DNA of 29,675 nucleotides, taken from assembly GCF_006345805.1 (NCBI RefSeq), contig NW_021836492.1, positions 1 through 29,675 of the forward strand, given 5' to 3'. Every line of letters begins with the position of its first letter. Position 1 is the stretch's first letter. The translations under genes and the position numbers were made by a program. The notes under the pieces are model-generated. The model searched no databases and was not told where the DNA came from. It worked only from the letters and a program-made list of their open reading frames with translations. Below, one piece after another: positions 5,918 through 27,947 of the stretch. Origin of the DNA: Octopus sinensis (taxonomy: Eukaryota).

Positions 5918-6110
5918 GCCATGATAGATCGGTATCCACTACACACATTTTTTCTCTCCTTGTTTCTTTCTGTGTCCCTTTCTGTAGAAGAGCGAAGGCT
6001 CGAAACGTAAAATAATTTTTCAATTCCTGAGCGTTATACCAATACATCTGTTTGTTTTCTACACCACCTGTCTTCGTCTTTTGTTGTTTTTTTTCGTGTA
6101 GTCTCTCTCT
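5918..6110 (+). mobile_element. Short repeat family C with variant HHR-like motif (copy 1)
   Basis: Shared with 22848-23018 and 26586-26785. Motif ttt CTGTAGA a GAGC gaag GCTC GAAA CG TA aaa at about 5979-6012. Flanked by (TATG)n and (TA)n. Confidence 0.7.
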
Positions 6111-8594: not shown

Positions 8595-8950
8595 GTTAAT
8601 ATATTTTCTGTTGTGTCTAGGAAGAGTCATTTTCTTTTTGTGCCTTACAATTTAACACACACACCGGTAAAATTTCCACTTATTTTCATTTTTATTTTTC
8701 TAAAATTTTCATGGCGTCTTGCAACCTTTAAAATTTTCGTTGCGTCTTGCAACCTTTTCAATAGTCAAGACTATTGAAAAGGTTGCAAGATGCAACGAAA
8801 ATTTTAGAAAAAAAGAAATAAAAAATAAGTGGAAATTTTACCGGTGAGTAAAAAGGCACGAAAAGAAAATTACTCTCCCCAGACACAGCAGAATATGTTT
8901 CAACAAAGAATCTTGCAAACCAAATCCAAAAATGAAATATATTTTCTATT
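8595..8950. repeat. Long inverted repeat centred at 8767-8768 with an internal 28-29 bp tandem duplication
   Basis: taaaattttcgttgcgtcttgcaaccttttcaatagtc-aa-gactattgaaaaggttgcaagatgcaacgaaaatttta. Arms continue imperfectly to about 8600 and 8900. Confidence 0.9.
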
Positions 8951-12377: not shown

Positions 12378-12469
12378 GCCCTAACACACCCACACGCACA
12401 TACACAGACACACACGGACACACACACATATATTCTCTCTCTCTCTATGTGTGTGTGTGTGTGTTGTGT

Positions 12470-12675
12470 ACCAAAGTAAGCACATAAATGCGAAACAAGG
12501 TGGAAAAATAGTACTCGAATACCAGAGCTAGAGTAATATGCTTTATTCAAAAGCAGCAGAAATATCACAAAAGCTGTCACTCAGAGTTTCACGTTCTAAA
12601 CAAAACTGTCCGACGAACGGGAACGTGAAACTTTGAGCGACAGTTTCTGGGATTTGTTGCTGCACTTTTATAAAG

Positions 12676-12676
<1 letters not shown>
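12470..12676. mobile_element. Inverted-repeat element, family F2, carrying a CCGACGA-core HHR-like motif
   Basis: Arms 12540-12596 and 12621-12676. Plus strand aaaactgt CCGACGA acg ggaa cgt GAAA ctttgag cg acagttt (12602-12646). Homologous to 22533-22780. Confidence 0.75.
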
Positions 12677-12737
<61 letters not shown>

Positions 12738-13144
12738 CAAAAAACACCCCATTTTCCTATGTTACTTCATAACTTTTAAGAAAAAAACCAACGTTCGTCA
12801 AATATACAAATTTCACATGGATATTATTGAAGAGCAGAAGAGTTATCTATAAATGCTTAACAATATAGAATTCCATTATTCTATATTAGCTAAGGCTATG
12901 AACTATATTTGGAATACAGGACAATATAATGGATTTTACACATAACTATTATGGATTATTACAGAAAACTAACCAAGGAAGTATATATGGATTAAAAGAC
13001 TCTCATACTAAAATGTACTTACCAACATCAAAAGCAGTAATTTTAAATTTATATTTGAAACAAACGCCATTTTACAGTATTTCTTCATATAAAAAAAAAA
13101 CAAAAAAACTACCATTTGATATATTATACAAAATTCAAATTTTA

Positions 13145-13236
13145 TATCTCTGAAGAGCAGAAGAGTTGTGTATAAATGCTTATCAACATAGGATTTCATT
13201 ATAGGGACAGCACTTCTGTGAAACGATCGTAAGATG
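13145..13236 (+). ncRNA. Type I hammerhead ribozyme, canonical core, long stem II (family F4)
   Basis: Stem I tatct/agatg; CTGAAGA 13150-13156; stem II GCAGAAG/CTTCTGT plus gttgt/acagc; GAAA 13220-13223; palindromic stem III CGATCG; GUA cleavage triplet ending at 13231. Confidence 0.8.
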
Positions 13237-13414
13237 CTCTAAAGATTTAATTCGAAACTTTTAAACTGTCATATGCATTATATATTTATACTTATACATT
13301 TTTACATATATTTATATATATTTATATTTTTAATACAACAATTATTTTACATACGTTTATATCTTTCTGAAGAATTTTCTAATATTGATTTCCTGATATT
13401 AATAATAATAAATT

Positions 13415-13444
13415 ATAATATATATATATATATATGTGTATGTG

Positions 13445-13484
<40 letters not shown>

Positions 13485-13525
13485 ATATGTGTGTGTGTGT
13501 GTGTATAATAGCACTATGACCCGGC

Positions 13526-13568
<43 letters not shown>

Positions 13569-13600
13569 TAATAATATAATAAAATAATGATAATAATAAA
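13415..13600. repeat. (TA)n/(TG)n and (TAA)n microsatellites
   Basis: Directly visible. Confidence 0.95.
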
Positions 13601-13873
13601 AGGGTAAAATTAATTAATTAATCAATCAATTAATTAATAATTTTACCAAGTAGATCTGTACGTTATAATAAACTTTATAGGTAAAATTATACAAATATTC
13701 TATAATTATAAACATAATTATAATTAGGGGTCAAGTAATTGCTTCACCACATACCGAATTTAGAAATAGGAGTTAAAAATTCCTTTTCTACTACCGTAAG
13801 AATCTCCCAGACAGTATCACACTTTTTTACGTAGGCAAAGAGAAAAATAATGAATCCACACGACTCCGATTAC

Positions 13874-13933
13874 CTACAGACGCGTTCCGAGATTAAAGTA
13901 TTTAATTTACTTACTTTCCCGTCATCAGTGTAG
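13874..13933 (-). ncRNA. Type I hammerhead motif (F1) with one core substitution (GAAA to GGAA)
   Basis: ctaca CTGATGA c GGGA aagta..tactt taa TCTC GGAA CGCG TC tgtag. Stem I is perfect. Confidence 0.7.
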
Positions 13934-14161
13934 CATTTCCATTATAAAATTTGAAAGTGCTAGAGTTAAATACGTACAGGATCGATGACGGGAAGTAAGT
14001 AAATAAAATACTTTAATCTCGAAACGCGTCTGTAGGTAATCGGAGTCGTGTTGATTCGGTATTTTTCTCTTTTTGCCTACGTAAAAAACTGTGATACTGT
14101 CTGGGAGGTTTTTACGGTAGTAGAAAAGGAATTTTTAAACTCCTATTTCTAAATTCGGTAT

Positions 14162-14380
14162 TACTCTTTACTCTCTTTTACTTGTTCCAATCATTTACTG
14201 CGGCCATGCTGGAGCACCGCCTTTAATCGAGCAACTGGACCCCGGGAATTATTCTTTTGTAAGCCCAGTACTTATTCTATTGGTCTCTTTTGCCGAACCG
14301 CTAAGTGATGGGGACGTAAACACACCAGCATCGGTTGTCAAGCAATGCTAGGGGGACAAACACAGACACACAAACACACA

Positions 14381-14427
<47 letters not shown>

Positions 14428-14608
14428 TATATACACATATTATACGACGGGCGTCTTTCAGTTTCCGTCTACCAAATCCACTCACAAGGCTTTGGTCGGC
14501 CCGAGGCTATTGTAGAGAAGACACTTGCCCAAGGTGCCACGCAGTGGGATGAACCCCGGAACCATGTGGTTGGAACAACCTACTTACCACACAGCCACTC
14601 CTGCGCCT
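14162..14608 (-). mobile_element. Family B SINE, full length, inserted into the F1 right arm
   Basis: F1 sequence resumes at 14609 (gtgaagcaattagctgacccctaattataat). Confidence 0.9.
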
Positions 14609-14704
14609 ATGTGAAGCAATTAGCTGACCCCTAATTATAATTATCACACATTCCTTCCAAGCACTGCTGTAAATAGCGAATGTGAACTAAAACGTTAAAA
14701 CTTA

Positions 14705-14786
14705 GTGCGCATGCACAACAGAGTTCGAAATCAATCTGCGCCAAGCGGTTTTACTCTGAGTACTTTAGCTTCGTTACCATAGCAAC
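14705..14786. promoter_or_regulatory. Candidate RFX X-box plus NRF1-like palindrome
   Basis: GTTACCATAGCAAC at 14773-14786 matches the X-box consensus. GTGCGCATGCAC at 14705-14716. Motif match only. Confidence 0.3.
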
Positions 14787-14864
14787 AGTCCGGATACTTA
14801 TTGATCAGACCACATATATTCCTCCTTCGACAGGACTTAGGTCCGTTGCAGGATTATTTATATA

Positions 14865-14993
14865 GAGTTGAGTGGAATTGAGCAATGAAGTGAAATGAAG
14901 TGCCTTGCTCGAGAACACAACACCCGACCCAGGAATCGAAACCACAATCTTAAGATCATGAGTCCAGCACCCTAACTACTGAGCCATATACCC
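14865..14993 (-). mobile_element. Head and CORE fragment of the SINE type seen at 9107-9415
   Basis: gtgaaatgaagtgccttgctc...aggaatcgaaacc...ccctaactactgagcca. Confidence 0.65.
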
Positions 14994-15400
14994 TACTTCT
15001 ACAATATACCCGGCTGAAATTGGAGTGCGTCTAATATACAAGCGCGTCTTTTACGCCATCAATTACGGCAAATAAAGAAGCAGCATAAACGTGGAATTGG
15101 TAAATTAGAGAGAAAACCAAAAATGGTGCTAAAAGAACGAAGCATAATTCGTGAGTAAACCTTTTACACTGAACAGTCTAGCAGAGAATAATGAAGAATG
15201 GTTTCCTTGTGACACTTCGAAGACGAATAATGAAAAAAAGCCCTCTTGTTTCGAATTGTTTCCAACTTTCTCCACAGTTCTGCCAATAATGTCAGAGGGT
15301 AAATATCGATTAGTCGTCAATATCGGTTATCGTATTATATGATAAATGGTTGGAACTGTTCGCTGTTCGTTGCAGGAATCATCGCAGCAATGATTGAATA

Positions 15401-15402
<2 letters not shown>

Positions 15403-15436
<34 letters not shown>

Positions 15437-15847
15437 GGGAATGTATGTGCATGTGTATGTGAGTGTGTATGCGTGTAAGAGAGTGTTAGTGTGTGTGTTC
15501 GTGTGTGTGTGTTAGTGTATGAGTTTGCCTCTGTGTGAGTGTGTGTGAGTGTGTGAGCTAGTGAGAGTATGTGTGTGTGTATGTGAATGTATGTGAATGC
15601 GTGCGCGTGTGTATGTGTGCACGTGTGTGAGTGTATATGTGTTTGTGTGTGTTTGTTAATGTGTGTGAGTTTGAGTGTGTGTATGTGTGTGTGAGTGTGT
15701 GAGCTAGTGAGAATATGTGTGTGCATGTATGTGAATGTGTGCGCGTGTGTATACGTGTACGTGTGTGAGTGAGTGTATATGTGTGAAATGGTGTTAGTAC
15801 GTGTGTGAGTGTATGTGTGTTTGTGTTTGTTATGCGTGTGTGTGTGC

Positions 15848-15916
<69 letters not shown>

Positions 15917-15930
15917 ATTAGTGCGTGTGT
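15403..15930. repeat. Long degenerate (TG)n tract with an internal duplicated unit
   Basis: gagtgtgtgagctagtgaga occurs at about 15547 and 15692. Confidence 0.9.
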
Positions 15931-15945
15931 GTATTTTCCGTTCAG

Positions 15946-16010
15946 AGAATGTCAGACAACGTTGGGAGCTGAGGTGAGCAAATTTATCGCTATGAAGAAT
16001 TTCTGCGACG
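15946..16010 (+). other. Candidate 65-nt internal exon
   Basis: Acceptor tattttccgttcAG, donor G|GTAAGT, and an open frame ECQTTLGAEVSKFIAMKNFCD. No homology recognised. Confidence 0.35.
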
Positions 16011-16149
16011 GTAAGTCATGAAAACGAATTGAGTTGATTGGATAAAATATTTTATTGATAGAACAACGGTTGGAATATTATGGCTTCGACTACCATAATT
16101 AGAATTGGAAATTACGAAGAGTATACTTCAAGAACTGTGATTGGTTATC

Positions 16150-16180
<31 letters not shown>

Positions 16181-16204
16181 ACACACAACACACACAGATA
16201 TATA

Positions 16205-16705
16205 TACTCTTTTACTTGTTTCAGTCATTTGACTGCGGCCATGCTGGAGCACCGCCTTTAGTCGAGCAAATCGACCCCAGGACTTATTCTTTTTGTAAGC
16301 CCAGTACTTATTCTATCGGTCTCTTTTGCCGAACCGCTAAGTGACGGGGACGTAAACACACCAGGCATCGGGGGTCAAGCAATGCTAGGGGGACAAACAC
16401 AGACACACAAACACACACATACATATAATATATACACATATATACGACAGGCTTCTTTCAGTTTCCGTCTACCAATCCACTCACAAGGCATTGGTCGGTC
16501 CGGGGCTATAGCAGAAGACACTTGCCCAAGATGCCACGCAGTGGGGCTGAACCCGGAACCATGTGGTTGGTTAGCAAGCTACTTACCACACAGCTACTCC
16601 TGATATATATATATATATAGTGTCTTTTACTTGTTTCAATTATTAGACTGCGGTCATGCTGGGGCACCGCTTGAAGAATTTTCATTTGAATGAATCGACC
16701 CCAGA
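16205..16705 (-). mobile_element. Family B SINE (16205-16602) plus a second 3' fragment (16625-16705)
   Basis: Matches the family B reverse complement. Confidence 0.85.
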
Positions 16706-16844
16706 ACAGAGGAGAATAGGAAGCGCAATAGATCATGCATCCATCTCAAGCAAGTGACAAAAAAGGGCAATGCTTAAAAGTATCTTTTTCACCAATTCTG
16801 ACATCAAATTCCATAACATCTGTGAAATCATTTTTTACTCGAGG

Positions 16845-17267
16845 CGCAAGCCCCGAATGTTTGGTGGGTGGGGGAAGTCGATAAAATCGACCCCAGTACG
16901 CAACTGGTACTTATTTTATCGACCACGAAAGGATGAAAGGTAAAGTCGACCTCGGCGGAATTTGAACACAGAACGTAACAGCAGACGAAATACTGCTAAG
17001 CATTTCGCCCGGCGTGCTAACGTTTCTTATTTCTTTATTGCCCATAAGGGGCTAAACATAGAGGGGGAAAACAAGGACAGACAAAGGGATTAAGTCGATT
17101 ACATTGACCTCAGTGCGTAACTGGTACTTATTTTATCGATCCCGAAAGGATGAAAGGTAAAGTCGACCTCGGCGGAATTTGAACTCAGAACATAACAGCA
17201 GACGAAATACCGCAAAGCATTTCGCCCGCTAAGTTACGGGGCGTAAACATAGGTGGGGTGACAAGCA

Positions 17268-17304
<37 letters not shown>

Positions 17305-17488
17305 ATGACTGGCCTCTTTCAGTTTCCGTCTACCAAATCCACTCACATGATTCAGTCCCACTGCGTGGCATCTTGGTCAGCCCGAGGCAATAGCAGAAGA
17401 CACTTGCCCAAGGTACCATACAGTGGTACTGAACCCAGAACCATGTAGTTAGTAAGCAAGCTACTTACCACACAGCCACTCCTACGCC
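16845..17488 (-). mobile_element. Dimeric family D SINE (16845-17228) abutting a partial family B SINE (17227-17488)
   Basis: ggtacttattttatcga...aaggtaaagtcgacctcggcggaatttgaac occurs twice; the family B head ends at 17488. Confidence 0.85.
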
Positions 17489-18064
17489 TTGTTACTTTTC
17501 TTTCCATTTCTTTTTCATTTGTCTTCGTCTCTCCTCCCCCGCTTCTTTCTGTCCTATCTTTCTCACCTTTATTTATTTATTTATTTATTTCCTTCTTTCT
17601 TTCTTGCTTTCATTCAATGTTTCCCTCCTTCATTTTTCCCCTTCTCTCTTTTATTGCAATTCATTCATCACGTTCGAATTTCAGTTTACAAAAGAAGAAA
17701 AAGCCATACAAAATAAAAGCAAAACCGGCAGATTGCGATCTGGAACGGAAAATTCTCGAAGATGTTACATTCTTTGACTTTTAATTAGTTGACAAACTTT
17801 CTACAAGAAACCATTCCAACATTGTAGTGAGTTTTACCAATCATTCTAATTACTTTCTCATTAATAATGATCTTGTTTAATTAAAAGATACCTTTTGACA
17901 ATCTTCATAATATTATTTTGTTGCAAAATTTAATAAATCACTGACTTAAACTTTAGCTCGTCTGTTACATGATAGAATTTCTTTGCATTCACTTGACTTG
18001 CTAAAAACAGTAGCCAAGCCTTCAGTCCTCGCGTTAAACATTTCTTCTTCAAATCCTAAAACTT

Positions 18065-18790
18065 ATAGAGCCGGTTATACAGTTTCCATTGCGTATGATT
18101 GACATTGCAACATTTCCCCTGGACGGGACGCATGACCTTGCAGGTGGGGCCCAGCTAGAGTTTTCTTCTGGTCGAGTAGCCCATCCCGCCCGAAAGGTCC
18201 CTGAATAAGGATTGTTTAAGGATGTTGAACGAACCACCCATGTTTCCAAAGGTGAATTATCCAAACCCCAAAGAATTCCTCTCAACACGTGGCTATTGAT
18301 GCTCCCCCACTACTTCTGCTCATGATCAGAGATGCACATATTGTTAACCACTAAGAGACATGGTCAACTGGTTAAGGTCAAGCAACTGACAAGCAAATCT
18401 GTGGTATTGAGCAGAATATTTGCTGTCGCCCATCTTTTATACCAAAACAAAACAATGTACATGATAACACTTCCAATCAGTTAAGATCAGAAGCCACGAG
18501 AGCCACTGTCTGGTACTGCATCAGGGCATTTATTATTATTATTATTGTTATTATTATCATCATCATAATCATCATCATCATTATCATCATTATCATCATC
18601 ATCATCTCATTCATTATTATTATTATTATTATTTATTATATTATTGAGTGAGAGCAGTTCATGCCATCAAAATGACACTGGGGTAAAATATACGAAGCCC
18701 AATATACCCATCATGACTACCCGTCTGATAAGGTACACCAGGCACATGCATCACAACCATATGTGCGCGACATGGTGATCTCATATCAAG
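18065..18790. repeat. SINE tail fragment (18065-18131, -) plus unclassified interspersed sequences embedded in (ATT)n/(ATC)n tracts
   Basis: The reverse complement gcgtcccgtccagggg...ggaaact...aaccggc matches the tail at 25755-25810. Segments 18132-18530 and 18645-18790 border directly on (TAA)n runs. Confidence 0.5.
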
Positions 18791-18793
18791 ATA

Positions 18794-18839
<46 letters not shown>

Positions 18840-19029
18840 GCAGCGAGCTGGCAGAATTGTTTAATTAACAAATATTTTTTTTACTTTTGGTAAATTTCCA
18901 AAACGAATGGAGATCGAGCAGAATGTGTGAACCAACCGGAAATTTCTCTGTTGGCCATTGCTGACCCGGTGCTAGCAAAAAAAAACCCATTCTCAATGGC
19001 TGAAAAACATCTCAAAGCAGATCTGACCA

Positions 19030-19410
19030 GGAAGTTAATATAGCTTCAGGCCATGGAGATCAACCACTGTGACAGCTACAGTAGAAAGCAGTGGAGCAAC
19101 ACCTTCCCCTCTTCGTGATGTTTGTGGACTTTTCTAAGGTATCTGACGCGATGGACCGAGAAACATTATGGGAAATCCTGGAAACTTATAGATGCCTTGA
19201 GAAACTTGCTAACATCATCAAGCAATTCCACTCAGGAATGAGAGGGATGGTCTCAGTTGGCGGAGTATTTTTGGTGAAGTGTTTGGAGTAAATCATAGTG
19301 TGAAGCAGGGGTCTGTGTTTGCCCCTACCTCCACTCTTCTCTCTTTACCTCACAGCTGTGCTTGGCACCATGAGGGTTAATCTGCACAAAAAGGATTTCA
19401 TCCGCAGCAA
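19030..19410 (+). mobile_element. Decayed RTE-clade LINE reverse transcriptase fragment
   Basis: SFRPWRST...EKAVEQHLPLFVMFVDFSKVSDAMDRETLWEIL...IIKQFHSGM...GVNHSVKQGSVFAPT..LFSLYL, corresponding to the RT motifs FVDF.KAFD and GV.QG...P.LF. Confidence 0.85.
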
Positions 19411-19531
19411 AACTAAAAGCGTTTGCGCTTCGAATTTTCGTTAATCACTGCTTTTTCGAGCTATATGGGGTATTAGAAATAGCAAATAAATAACTGTTTT
19501 GCTTGAATGTTAAATTATACTGCAGAATACG

Positions 19532-19946
19532 TTACTCTTTTACTATTTTACTTGTTTAAGGCATTTGACTGTGGCCATGCTGGAGCACCACCTTTAGTCG
19601 ATTGAGCAAATCGACCCCAGGACTTATTCTTTGTAAGCCTAGTACTTATTCTATCGCTCTCTTTTGCCGAACCGCTAAGTTACGGGGACGTAAACACACC
19701 GGCATCGGTTGTCAAGCGATGTTGGGGGGACAAGCACAGACACACAAACATATACACACACACTTACATATATACATATATACGACGGGCTTCTTTCATT
19801 TTACGTCTACCAAATCCACTCACAAGGCTTTGGTCGACCCGAGGCTATAATAGAAGACACTCGCCCAAGGTGCCATGCAGTGGGACTGAACCCGGAACCA
19901 TATGGTTCGTAAGCAAGCTACTTACCACACAGCCACTCCTACGCCT
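19532..19946 (-). mobile_element. Family B SINE, full length
   Basis: Consensus match. Confidence 0.88.
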
Positions 19947-20163
19947 ATGATATTTTCAATGGACATTGTATGAAAATTCCATAACATTTTATATATTTTC
20001 GCAATGCCAGTTTCAGTCCCGTCTTGGGATTTCATCAACGAGTGTAGATCTGCTTTCAATGTGAATGAATAAATGAATAGTCTACTTATACATCCACAAT
20101 TACAAACGGTTAAAGAAACGGATAGACCAACTTGCATATATAACGTGGATGAAAGGTAGAGAA

Positions 20164-20397
20164 GCAGGAGTGGTTGTGTGGTAAGTAGCTTGCTAACCAA
20201 CCACATGGTTCCGGGTTCAGTCCCACTGCGTGGCATCTTGGGCAAGTTGTCTGCTATAGTCCGGGCCGACCAATGCCTTGTGAGTGGATTTGGTAGACGG
20301 AAACTGAAAGAAGCCTGTCGTATATATGTTATATATATATATATATAGTATATAATATATATATATATATATATAATATATATATATATTATATATA

Positions 20398-20431
<34 letters not shown>

Positions 20432-20630
20432 TTGTCCCCCTAGCATTGCTTGACAACCGATGCTGGTGGTTTACGTCCCCGTCACTTAGCGGTTCGGCAA
20501 AAAGAGACCGATAGAATAAGTACTGGGCTTACAGAAAGAATAAGTCCCGGGGTCGAGTTGCTCGACTAAAGGCGGTGCTCCAGCATGGCCGCAGTCAAAT
20601 GACTGAAACAAGTATAAAGAGTAAAAGAGA
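20164..20630 (+). mobile_element. Family B SINE, head-to-head with 19532-19946
   Basis: Consensus match with internal (TA)n. Confidence 0.88.
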
Positions 20631-21159
20631 GAGAGTAAGCTGAATAATAATAAACAGAAAGTGGCCGAAATTTATTGGTATTAAGAAGTGGTGGTTAGAG
20701 ACTGGGGAGGAAAAGGAGGAGAGAGAAAAAATATAAGAAGGGGAGAGACAAAATATAAAACCACGGTGTGTGTTTTTGAAAGTGTGGTGAAGCGATAGAG
20801 TATGAAAGGCGAGGTGCATAAGGCTCGGTCTTTTTTTTTTATGAAACAATTAACCGGTTATAGCCGTGGTCGTGGGGGAATTAAAAGGAGTTGAGAAAAG
20901 AGGTAATTAAGAACTATTTTAATTAAAGGATCATAGAATATTATTTTAAGATTAAAAATACGGGGTTTAGTTGTATTAGGGATAAATGACTCATTAGGAG
21001 TGTTTCAAAATGCCTGAAGTGGTAATAAAAGTAGAAAAGCTGCCTCATTTTATTGAGAAATTTGTTATTTGTATTGTAAAACGGTTTGGTTTAAATTAGA
21101 ATAAGGTGAAAGTGACACAGCAGTGGTTAAGGTGAGCTAAGGAAGTTTCTATTATTATT

Positions 21160-22090
21160 GGTTTCAAAGTTTGGCACAAGGCCAGCAAGTTCTGGGGAAT
21201 GAGTAATCGATTACATCAACGGCAATGCTTGACTGGTTCTTATTTTATCGACCCCAAAAAAGAACGAAATGCAAAAACGACCTCGACGGAATTTGAACTC
21301 AGAACTCAGAAGACGGACGAAATGCCGCTGAGTATTTTGTCCGGCGTGCCACCGTTTCTGCCAGCTCGCAGCCTCAAAGTTTGTATTTACATCAGTTTCG
21401 AATTTTAGCACGAGTCTAGCAATTTCAGGGAAGGGAATAAGTCGATGGCATCACCCCCATTGACCAACTAGTATTTATTTTATCGACCCCGAGAGAACGA
21501 AAGGTAAAGTCGACCTCGGCGGAATTTGAACTCAGAACATAAAGGCAGAAAAAATGCCACTGAGCATCTTGGTCGGCGTGCTAACGTCTCTACAGCTCGC
21601 CGTCTTACAAATATTCAAATATTAATAAAAACGTTAAGGCGGCGAGCTGGCAGAAACGTTAGCACGCCGGGCGAAATGCGTAGTCGTATTCCGTCTGCCG
21701 TCACGTTCAAATTCAGCGGGGAACCTTGGGCAAGTGTCTTCTACTACAGCCTCGGACTGACCAAAGCCTTGTGAGTGGATTTGCTAAACGGAAACTGAAA
21801 GAATCCTGTCATGGATATATATATATATATATATATATACGTATGTGCGTGTGTGTGCGTGTGTGCGTGTGTGTGTGCGTGTGTGTGTATGTGTGAAAAT
21901 GTGTGCGTTTGTCCCCCACTACTGCTTGACAACCGGTGTTGTGTTTATGCCCTGTGACTTAGCGGTTCGGCAAAGGAGACCGACAGAATAGATATCAGGC
22001 TTAAGACAAAATAAGCACTGGAGTCGATACGTTCGACTAAAATTCTTCTTGGGGGTGCTCCAGCAGGGCCGCAGTCAAATAACTGAAATT
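21160..22090. mobile_element. SINE cluster: two family D copies (21160-21372 and 21395-21606, -), a D head (21637-21713, +) joined to a family B body (21723-22090, +)
   Basis: Segments align to the family D and B copies elsewhere in the window. Confidence 0.75.
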
Positions 22091-22134
22091 AAAAAAAAAT
22101 AGAATACCAGTAATTACATCTTTTGTAAGAAATA

Positions 22135-22495
22135 TTGTCACAGAATTGGCTGGGAAATGAGAGAATAAGATGAAGAAAAAAAGCATGGAATAAACTGCAT
22201 AGAAATAGAGAAGTTTATATATCGTTAAGTAGAGAGAAAAAGCATGAGAAAAATGGTGAAGAATTGTAAATTTAAGATCAATAGTTATATGGAAAAGTAG
22301 GATTGAGTGGGAGACCCCGAGGAAAAGAAAGTGTAGAAGTATTCTTGAAATAATGTAAAGAATATTTAACTGCAGAACGTGAATATGGATGAGTGCAGCC
22401 TTTGTAGAGGTTTACAGAGAAATTGTAAAGCAGTGCTAAGCGGCATAACCCAAGAGAAGGAACCGAGATTCTAAGTGGAATAGAGACGAAAAAAC
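22135..22495 (+). mobile_element. Possible highly decayed LINE 3' end
   Basis: Purine-rich. Residual WLG and GRPRGK words resemble the RTE C-terminus. Confidence 0.3.
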
Positions 22496-22532
22496 AGGTC
22501 ATATAATATCATATCATATCATATATATGTAT

Positions 22533-22780
22533 GCTTTATTAATAAAACTATAAAGACATTACAAAAACTGTTACTCAGAGTTTCACGTTACCGTTTGTCG
22601 GACAGTTTTGGTTGAAAATAGAACAAAATATGAACCATATTTTGTTCCATTCTCAACCAAAACTGTCCGACAAAAGGGAACGTGAAACTCTGAGTAAGAG
22701 TTTTTGTGATATCTTTGCAGCTTTATAAATAAAGCCTCTAGTATTCGAGTACTATTTTCTTCCACTTTGTTTCGCATTTA
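22533..22780. mobile_element. About 200-bp hairpin of family F2 with an HHR-like motif in each arm
   Basis: Arms 22533-22632 and 22636-22735 with a 3-nt loop. Minus: aaaactgt CCGACAA acg gtaa cgt GAAA ctctgag TA acagtttt. Plus: aaaactgt CCGACAA aag ggaa cgt GAAA ctctgag TA agagtttt. Confidence 0.85.
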
Positions 22781-22847
22781 TATGCTTATTCTGGAATATA
22801 TTTTTTCTTTCTTCTCCTTTTCCATATATATATATTTTTTTTTTTTC

Positions 22848-23017
22848 ACATTTTTTCTCTCCTTGTTTCTCTCATTGTTTTTTGTGAGTCCTTTTCTGTA
22901 GAAGGGCGTAGGCTCGAAACATAAAAGACTTTTTCTATTCCTGAGCGTTATACTAATACATCTGTTTGTTTTGTACACCACCTATCTTCGTCTTTTGTCT
23001 TTTTCGTAAACTCCCCC

Positions 23018-23174: not shown

Positions 23175-23257
23175 ACTGTACTGAAGACGAGAATGAGAGA
23201 GTAGAAATAGGATTTTACATTTTTCACATCTCTCTAACTCCGAAACGCGTATATAGT
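23175..23257 (+). ncRNA. Type I hammerhead ribozyme, canonical core (F1 family, diverged copy within 23125-23430)
   Basis: Stem I actgta/tatagt; CTGAAGA 23181-23187; stem II GAG..GAGAGA/TCTCTC..CTC with a C.C mismatch at its base; GAAA 23242-23245; CGCG; GUA site ending at 23251. Confidence 0.75.
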
Positions 23258-23480
23258 TAATCAAAGCCGGGTGGATTCGTTATTTTTTCTCTCTTCTTTA
23301 TCTGCGTGAGTTGTTGAGTATTGCTGTTTGGGAGATTTTTTTATGGTAGTGAAATTGTAGTTGTTAACTGGTATATCTAAATTTCGGTATGTGGTGATGC
23401 AATTTTTGCTGAACCCTAATTATAATTATACTCATAATTATAGAAGTAATATATATATATATATATATTATAGATATATA

Positions 23481-26423: not shown

Positions 26424-27062
26424 AGGAGTGGCTGTGTGGTAAGTAGCTTACTTGCCAACCACATGGTTCCGGGTTCAGTCCCACTGCTTGGCACGTTGGG
26501 CAAGTGTCTTCTACTATAGCCTCGGGCTGACCAAAGACGGAAACTGAAAGAAACCCGTCGTATAAATATGTATATCTATATGTATGCCATGATAGATCGT
26601 TAGCCACTACGCACATTTCTTTTCTCCCCTTGTTTCTCTTCTTGTTTTCTGTGTCCCTTTCTGTAGAAGAGCGTAGGCTCGAAACGTAAAAGACTTTTTC
26701 TATTCCTGAGCGTTATACCATACAGCTGTTTGTTTTGTACACCACCTGTCTTCCGTCTTTTGTTTTTTTCCATAAACTCTCCCTAATGTATGTATGTATG
26801 TATGTATGTATGTATGTATGTATGTATGTATGTATGTATGTATGCGTGTGTTTTTGTGTCTGTGTTTGTCCTTCCACCATCGCTTGACAACCGATGCTGG
26901 TGTGTTTACGCCCCCGTAACTTAGCGGTTCAGCAAAAGAACCCGATAGAAATAAGTACTAGGTTTACAAAGAATAAGTTCTGTTGTCGATATGATCCACT
27001 AAAGGCGGTACACCAGCATGGCCGCAGTCAAATGACTGAAACAAGTAAAAGAGCAAAAGAGT
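26424..27062 (+). mobile_element. Family B SINE with a family C element (26586-26785) nested in its internal microsatellite
   Basis: B 5' half 26424-26562; C insert containing cttt CTGTAGA a GAGC gtag GCTC GAAA CG TA aaag (26657-26692); (TATG)n; B 3' half 26845-27062. Confidence 0.85.
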
Positions 27063-27897: not shown

Positions 27898-27947
27898 ATT
27901 CATCAGACAAGCTGTTTCGACCTGATGTGCTCTCTTCAGAAGTGAAT
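27898..27947 (-). ncRNA. Type I hammerhead motif, canonical core with imperfect stems (family F5)
   Basis: attcactt CTGAAGA gagc acatca ggtc GAAA cagcttg TC tgatgaat. GUC site; stem I pairs only distally (attca/tgaat); one G.G mismatch in stem II. Confidence 0.6.

What the first reader, a model, noticed from the sequence alone, without database searches (positions are those of the whole stretch)
12470..22780. Family F2: hammerhead fold with a non-canonical CCGAC(G/A)A core, always in inverted repeats
The three complete copies give the consensus aaaactgt-CCGACGA-acg(ggaa)cgt-GAAA-ctc(t)gag-TA-acagtttt. It has an 8-bp stem I, a tetraloop stem II and a stem III with a 1-nt loop that probably needs dimerisation. 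U4 is C in all three copies, so this looks like a family-level core variant rather than decay. Each individual copy has a further lesion (UA to CG at 12638-12639, or G8A).
Basis: partly seen in the sequence, partly recalled or inferred. Interest (0 to 1): 0.75.

Follow-up and report, generated by a model that had tools for sequence, protein, structure and literature searches.

The report
C4-variant hammerhead in Penelope-element stubs
These small palindromes are stumps of a Penelope-like jumping gene whose self-cutting RNA motif carries, family-wide, a C where the textbook core has a U: a real variant of a known kind, probably slow-cutting, with cutting itself untested.

Summary
Two loci (12470-12676, 22533-22794) each hold a head-to-head pair of arms: three full hammerhead folds and one truncated. 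No window copy is intact. The abundant sub-family changes fall on tolerant positions (N7, loop III, outer stem I). The element is very probably the 3' end of a Hydra-clade Penelope-like retrotransposon: sister hammerheads with the same stem III and site, all U4 (13 of 13), flank a Hydra-type ORF, and a second 3' motif, (TA)n neighbours and the one-sided tail match. The inverted arrangement is insertion anatomy and masks the fold; 'always' was not shown. C4 is not new in itself: it is reported in a viroid and in a CYGANGA virome survey, and here 32 of 120 phage C4 matches fold fully against 1 of 120 for A4. Best reading: a slow, dimer-dependent ribozyme; main rival: a dead master copy that spread anyway.

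The parts
12470..12596 (-). Arm d of locus 1: element end truncated at its 5' side inside loop II; carries stem III, the site (G at 17) and the long 3' tail
12510..12534 (-). Second conserved 3' motif (RCTC-T-hairpin-ATT(C)-GAGY-ACT), 43 nt after the cleavage site, in the tail that only one arm of each pair has
   Evidence: also in L422, L425, L440, L442; published Hydra-2_Amil and Hydra-2_Ajap ends; distance read
12594..12676 (+). Arm a of locus 1: short-tailed arm
12602..12647 (+). Hammerhead fold, copy a: C4 at 12611, G8 kept, site damaged (UA to CG at 12638-12639)
12677..12732 (.). (TA)n microsatellite abutting arm a; (TG)n at 12448-12469 abuts arm d
22533..22634 (-). Arm b of locus 2: short-tailed arm, ends in TA-rich sequence
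22564..22609 (-). Hammerhead fold, copy b: C4 at 22600, G8A, all stems intact, UA site intact
22637..22794 (+). Arm c of locus 2: long-tailed arm with a 12-nt deletion in the tail motif; used as reference for laying public contigs
22659..22704 (+). Hammerhead fold, copy c: C4 at 22668, G8A, private changes at 10.2 (22675) and 1.2 (22698)

Best explanation
F2 is the 3' pseudo-LTR end of a Hydra-clade Penelope-like retrotransposon (PLE) family, present in many copies as 5'-truncated stubs. The head-to-head pairs with a tail on one arm are the usual PLE insertion product, landed at TA/TG microsatellites (shown by anatomy and homology; about 0.88). Its type I hammerhead changed U4 to C in a master lineage before the sub-families seen in four runs arose (shown by depth shares). 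In an intact tandem element two same-strand hammerheads would pair through the self-complementary stem III and cut after GUA, releasing unit-length RNA (inferred from the PLE model and from folding). C4 makes the cut slower but is tolerated (inferred from viroid and phage variants). The stubs in this window are broken, and their read-through RNA would fold into a long hairpin that hides the ribozyme, so they are inert relics.
For:: C4 in 94-98% of depth, T4 no higher than CpG decay; G8 93-96%; no change of 3% or more at U16.1, A17, G12-A14 or stem III pairs. Abundant variants at N7 (T 65% in X7), loop III (A up to 51%, C up to 18%) and 1.5 (C 8-33%); 0 of 32 constrained against 7 of 45 free positions vary (Fisher p=0.037; within the fold 0 of 32 against 3 of 14, p=0.024, classes set after seeing the data); copy b dimer -22.9 kcal/mol as a double hammerhead against -6.4 per monomer; 13 of 23 metagenome loci hold a sister hammerhead with its 5' half, all U4; L425 and L442 place it beside an ORF with RWK, DKT, CxCX5C, CxxC and CxH, the Hydra diagnostics; published Hydra hammerheads have the same palindromic stem III, Hydra-2_aMil with the same inner stem I, stem III pairs and site; shared 3' motif; in phage contigs full folds in 99/120 U4, 32/120 C4, 1/120 A4, 1/61 G4 matches. 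U4C tolerated in a viroid; C/T degeneracy in a virome survey.
Against: No ORF is linked to F2 itself (tblastn of the sister ORF against the window: no hit). No cleavage data. Bench mutagenesis of a type III hammerhead found low activity for all single mutants of the CUGA turn, and U4C 'considerably decreases' activity in vitro. PLE hammerheads are weak even with U4. Phage C4 folds mostly have a G-C or C-G 2.1-1.1 pair (24 of 28 distinct, against 32 of 92 for U4), whereas F2 has U-A, plus A10.1-U11.1 and a 3-bp stem II. Naiad PLEs thrive without canonical hammerheads, so the ribozyme may be dispensable. The constraint test is post hoc, rests on three variable sites inside the fold, and uses depth-weighted, reference-biased shares. 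No covariation was seen across F2 and sisters, as expected from how they were picked.
Confidence: 0.58

Rival explanations
1. Same element, dead ribozyme: U4C knocked out an already weak hammerhead in one master copy, the family spread regardless (ribozyme dispensable, RT supplied by itself or in trans), and the fold persists by descent.
For: Low activity of CUGA mutants; weak stems; Naiads lack canonical hammerheads yet proliferate; every inserted copy spans the cleavage site, so uncut RNA was a usable template; T4, one CpG transition away, did not amplify in any of four runs, so U4 gave no visible advantage.
Against: Amplified sub-family changes avoid the constrained positions; of the eight CpG bases in the fold only C7, the neutral one, rose to high share; C4 is the one position-4 change that recurs in intact phage folds.
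Confidence: 0.3
2. The fold is kept for a non-catalytic job, such as dimerising element RNA through the palindromic stem III or binding the element's RT/endonuclease, so C4 is free to stay.
For: Stem III pairs are invariant and shared with distant sisters; Cervera and de la Pena leave non-cleavage roles open.
Against: Purely catalytic bases (G8, G12, A17 rather than G) are also kept in the family majority; 13 of 13 sisters keep U4.
Confidence: 0.08
3. A MITE-like DNA palindrome or a non-LTR retrozyme rather than a PLE stub.
For: The loci are small palindromes (-119 kcal/mol, z -21.6); no ORF nearby.
Against: Arms are unequal and the centres differ between loci; no tandem direct units in the window; hammerhead and tail motif match Hydra PLE ends; a sister locus L422 has the same truncated head-to-head form.
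Confidence: 0.04

Closest known systems
Hammerheads of Hydra-clade Penelope-like elements (Craig et al. 2021, PMC8557442, section 11 and File S2), closest Hydra-2_aMil and Hydra-2_aJap
   Same: Type I fold at the 3' end; palindromic 4-bp stem III with a 1-nt loop; same inner stem I and GUA site as Hydra-2_aMil; (TA)n targets; shared downstream motif
   Different: C4 instead of U4 (all 26 Hydra rows of File S2 have ctga, though a canonical descriptor picked them); stem II is 3 bp with A10.1-U11.1; the paper's octopus element Hydra-1_oBim has a different hammerhead; no ORF seen for F2
Minimal PLE hammerheads and their U3-A8 core variant (Cervera and de la Pena 2014, PMC4209133)
   Same: Dimer-dependent, palindromic stem III, dual motifs on opposite strands, family-level core variants exist
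   Different: The described variant is a compensatory 3-8 swap; here an uncompensated position-4 change
U4C viroid hammerhead (Ambros and Flores 1998, seen only as cited in PMC3088659) and CYGANGA hammerheads of viromes and phages (PMC13481778)
   Same: Same core substitution, occurring naturally
   Different: Those have stable stem III and usually tertiary contacts; F2 is a weak, dimer-type fold in an animal retroelement
PLE insertions with inverted pLTR and tail (Arkhipova et al. 2013, PMC3846280; PMC8557442)
   Same: Head-to-head inverted 5'-truncated copy; extension on one arm only
   Different: Tail here is about 55-60 nt, longer than the 30-40 bp described; no target-site duplication discerned

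Membership tests
Type I hammerhead ribozyme | Three stems around the core, stem I open | tested here: met
   Copy b has all pairs; majority letters keep all pairs
Type I hammerhead ribozyme | Core C3 U4 G5 A6 N7 G8 A9 | tested here: not met
   C4 in 94-98% of depth; other positions canonical. Meets the wider CYGANGA descriptor of PMC13481778
Type I hammerhead ribozyme | G12 A13 A14, A15.1-U16.1, H17 | tested here: met
   No other letter at 3% or more at 22684-22687, 22695, 22696 in four runs
Type I hammerhead ribozyme | G10.1-C11.1 closing pair | tested here: not met
   A10.1-U11.1; sisters have G-U or U-U there
Type I hammerhead ribozyme | Loop I / loop II tertiary contact | tested here: inconclusive
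   GNRA loop II and U at 1.7 are present, as in the contact described in PMC11875169, but sisters swap loop II for other stable tetraloops
Type I hammerhead ribozyme | Self-cleavage at N17 | not testable with these tools
   Needs an in vitro assay
Hydra-clade Penelope-like element | 3' hammerhead with palindromic stem III and short loop | tested here: met
   (architecture; core differs at position 4)
Hydra-clade Penelope-like element | Insertion into (TA)n | tested here: met
   Arm a abuts (TA)n, arm b TA-rich sequence; 25 contigs of X7 run from the tail end into (TA)n (table 7); arm d abuts (TG)n instead
Hydra-clade Penelope-like element | Inverted 5'-truncated copy at the 5' end, tail on one arm | tested here: met
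   2 of 2 window loci
Hydra-clade Penelope-like element | Linked ORF with RWK, DKT, CxCX5C and C-terminal GIY-YIG domain | tested here: inconclusive
   No such ORF in the window, expected for stubs; present beside the sister hammerhead in L425 and L442. No Pfam hit for that ORF, so the assignment rests on the motifs
Non-LTR retrozyme | Tandem direct repeats of 170-400 nt, each with a hammerhead | tested here: not met
   Only inverted pairs in the window; not testable genome-wide

The most novel reading that the evidence does not exclude
C4 is actively maintained in this animal retroelement lineage, although it sits in a CpG that would revert to the textbook U4 at a high rate, because a deliberately slowed, dimer-dependent cut leaves enough uncut or circular RNA for reverse transcription. 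That would be a selected, attenuated ribozyme in a high-copy animal retrotransposon, missed by CUGANGA-based screens, and a direct handle on what PLE hammerheads are for.
Probability: 0.2. Interest if true: 0.65.

Novelty: new variant of a known kind. Interest (0 to 1): 0.4.

Why it matters
The role of hammerheads in endonuclease-bearing PLEs is an open question (PMC8557442 says so). A high-copy family fixed for C4, with U4 sisters of nearly the same fold, is a ready-made natural comparison: if it cuts, position 4 is looser in animal retroelements than screens assume and such families are under-counted; if it does not, it shows that a PLE family can spread with a dead ribozyme. The base change itself and the inverted stubs are not new.

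Tried and rejected
Rfam scan: no hammerhead family hit on any F2 copy, only miRNA-like hits to the palindrome. No whole genome held, so no phased genome-wide alignment. No RNA holder listed for the stretch; no inference drawn. Full F2 pattern in metagenome and viral contigs: 0 and 0. Earlier findings by sequence and by place: nothing. Pfam on the sister ORF: 0 families. Pair counts: one search had a mis-registered structure and is void; one search shows 90.8% pairing but no covariation. A one-mismatch descriptor found no F2 copy because each has two or more lesions. Supplement search for the tail motif with 7-letter words was too unspecific to use. Rejected: the inverted arm as dimer partner (it is antisense; the locus folds as one hairpin); C4 as decay; G8A or CG at the site as family states; 'always inverted' as a proven property (one search lists 7 opposite-strand joints, one contig each per run; among sister loci 4 show an inverted partner within 400 nt and several with ample flank show none). 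Lunse et al. 2017, Arkhipova et al. 2017 and Ambros and Flores 1998 were not held, so they may contain variants or rates I did not see.
Full report
Setting. The window is AT-rich animal DNA full of microsatellites and short interspersed repeats, with no credible gene. The repeats look like those of octopus; this is recalled, not tested. No whole genome is held.

Observation. Self-comparison finds four arms in two loci. Locus 1: arm d (12470-12596, minus) and arm a (12594-12676, plus). Locus 2: arm b (22533-22634, minus) and arm c (22637-22794, plus). In each locus the arms are head to head, one arm stops about 30 nt after the fold and the other runs about 55-60 nt further. Arm a abuts (TA)n, arm d (TG)n, arm b TA-rich sequence. 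Arms a, b and c hold a full type I hammerhead fold with C at position 4; arm d is cut in loop II. Each copy has a further lesion: a has CG for UA at the site, b and c have G8A, c also breaks pairs 10.2 and 1.2. A descriptor allowing two core mismatches finds a and b; hits of that strength came up 0 times in 100 shuffles. Rfam gave no hammerhead hit on these copies.

Family consensus. One search listed 24 runs, 20 holding part of the stretch; I laid 4 of them (X1, X2, X4, X7; four organism labels, four studies) on arm c at 80% likeness. Between 1,206 and 2,560 contigs lay on the 164 bases per run, so the family is high-copy; depth is not a copy number. One run may be close to the window's own source (X4 has a contig with no difference over 22683-22800). 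Shares are depth-weighted and biased towards the reference. Position 4 reads T in 1.8, 5.6, 4.0 and 3.6%; the partner base of that CpG reads A in 2.4, 4.8, 3.6 and 2.9%; other CpGs in the fold decay at 1.5-7.5%. So C4 is the family state and T4 is passive decay. G8 holds 93-96%, C10.2 92-96%, C1.2 98-99%, and U16.1 and A17 show no change of 3% or more. Abundant variants inside the fold fall on N7 (T in 65% of X7), the single loop III base (A up to 51%, C up to 18%) and pair 1.5 (8-33%). Because T4 stays under 6%, these sub-families must mostly carry C4. Counting the 3' flank, 0 of 32 constrained and 7 of 45 free positions vary (p=0.037), within the fold 0 of 32 against 3 of 14 (p=0.024). I set these classes after seeing the data, so this is suggestive only.

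What the element is. A scan of metagenome contigs with the stem III and site motif gave 23 loci; 13 hold a sister hammerhead with its 5' half, and all 13 have U4 (some are near duplicates). The other 10 are truncated copies or chance matches. In L425 the hammerhead lies about 160 nt before a 714-residue reading frame, and in L442 between the end of one such frame and the start of the next. That frame has RWK, DKT, CxCX5C, CxxC and CxH, the features that define the Hydra clade of Penelope-like elements (PMC8557442, section 11 read); Pfam does not recognise it. That paper's File S2 lists 26 Hydra hammerhead rows, all with a ctga core and a palindromic stem III; Hydra-2_aMil has the same inner stem I, stem III pairs and site as F2, and almost all Hydra families insert into (TA)n. 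A second motif 43-51 nt after the site is shared by arm d, four sister loci (0.15 hits per shuffle, pattern drawn after seeing the sequences) and two published Hydra ends, with a G-C to A-U double change in F2. Head-to-head truncated pairs with a tail on one arm are the described PLE insertion form (passages of PMC8557442 and PMC3846280); sister locus L422 shows it too. No ORF is linked to F2 itself. I put Hydra-clade origin at about 0.88, and C4 as derived from U4.

How it would work. Stem III is self-complementary. Folded freely, two molecules of copy b give the double hammerhead (-22.9 kcal/mol against -6.4 per monomer, where the hammerhead form has a probability near 0.01). This fits the PLE model, in which same-strand neighbours in tandem elements dimerise and cut slowly (PMC4209133, parts 1-2 of 4 read; passages of PMC6765202). 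The inverted arm cannot be that partner: it is antisense, and a read-through transcript folds as one hairpin of -119 kcal/mol. The stubs here are therefore inert whichever way C4 acts. These steps are inferred; no cleavage was shown.

Is C4 compatible with cutting? For: a U4C viroid variant loses much activity in vitro but stays infectious (passage of PMC3088659; the original was not held). A 2026 virome survey uses CYGANGA and reports C/T at that position (passages of PMC13481778). Prompted by earlier notes, I scanned phage contigs with one pattern per base at position 4 (three scans stopped at 120 rows) and applied one fold filter: 99 of 120 U4, 32 of 120 C4, 1 of 120 A4 and 1 of 61 G4 matches passed (p about 1e-9 for C4 against A4, ignoring relatedness). 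Against: all single mutants of the CUGA turn were low in a mutagenesis screen (passage of PMC9901934); phage C4 folds mostly have a G-C or C-G first pair in stem I (24 of 28 against 32 of 92) while F2 has U-A, a 3-bp stem II and A10.1-U11.1; and Naiad PLEs spread without canonical hammerheads. I estimate 0.58 for a slow working ribozyme in the master element and 0.3 for a dead one.

'Always inverted' holds for 2 of 2 loci here but is not shown beyond them. Only the inner 4 pairs of stem I are shared with sisters. No covariation could be shown across F2 and sisters.

Novelty. I found no report of a C4 hammerhead family in an animal PLE in searches with: hammerhead ribozyme + Penelope + octopus, hammerhead + U4C + catalytic core, hammerhead + CCGA + uridine turn + viroid, octopus genome + Penelope + ribozyme and hammerhead + CCGANGA/CYGANGA/C4 variant/U4 to C. 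Lunse et al. 2017 and Arkhipova et al. 2017 were not held, and the supplements of Cervera and de la Pena 2014 were not read; any of them may list such a variant. Other papers seen: PMC6155905, PMC2837043, PMC3376415, PMC7229834, PMC11875169 (passages), bioRxiv 10.64898/2026.07.22.740005 (parts 1-2 of 5). Verdict: a real, family-level variant of a known kind; interest 0.4.

Noticed in passing
window 12510-12534 (-); L422, L425, L440, L442: A conserved 3' motif (short stem, internal loop, apical hairpin) in the tail of Hydra-type ends, with a double change between F2 and sisters; short arms stop just before it. A candidate recognition site for the element's RT or endonuclease.
   Followed up: partly
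window about 5975-6020, 22888-22930, 26653-26696 (+): Another minimal hammerhead-like family whose three window copies all read CUGUAGA (U at position 6) with a short palindromic stem III; possibly a second family-level core variant.
   Followed up: no
window 13740-14160 and 23230-23300: Inverted pair of a third family with a long stem II and an ACGCGU stem III, typical of PLE minimal hammerheads; canonical core on the minus-strand arm (read).
   Followed up: no
window 27898-27947 (-): Weak Rfam Hammerhead_1 match (21.5 bits, E 0.68), canonical core.
   Followed up: no
window 22661, loose ends: In all four runs 34-68 contigs have a different 5' flank ending in GATCAC; if joined to the usual 3' side it would extend stem I around a UUU bulge. 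Phasing unknown.
   Followed up: no
L001-L120 (phage contigs): C4 hammerheads in phages favour a G-C or C-G pair next to the core (24 of 28 distinct against 32 of 92 for U4), a possible compensation.
   Followed up: partly
window 8730-8805; 280-660; 19040-19400: A near-perfect 76-nt palindrome, and two decayed non-LTR reverse-transcriptase-like fragments (the label is recalled; ORF at 311-658). No link to F2 seen.
   Followed up: no
L425:507-2651: An apparently intact 714-residue Hydra-clade PLE reading frame with its 5' pseudo-LTR and U4 hammerhead; no Pfam family recognises it.
   Followed up: partly
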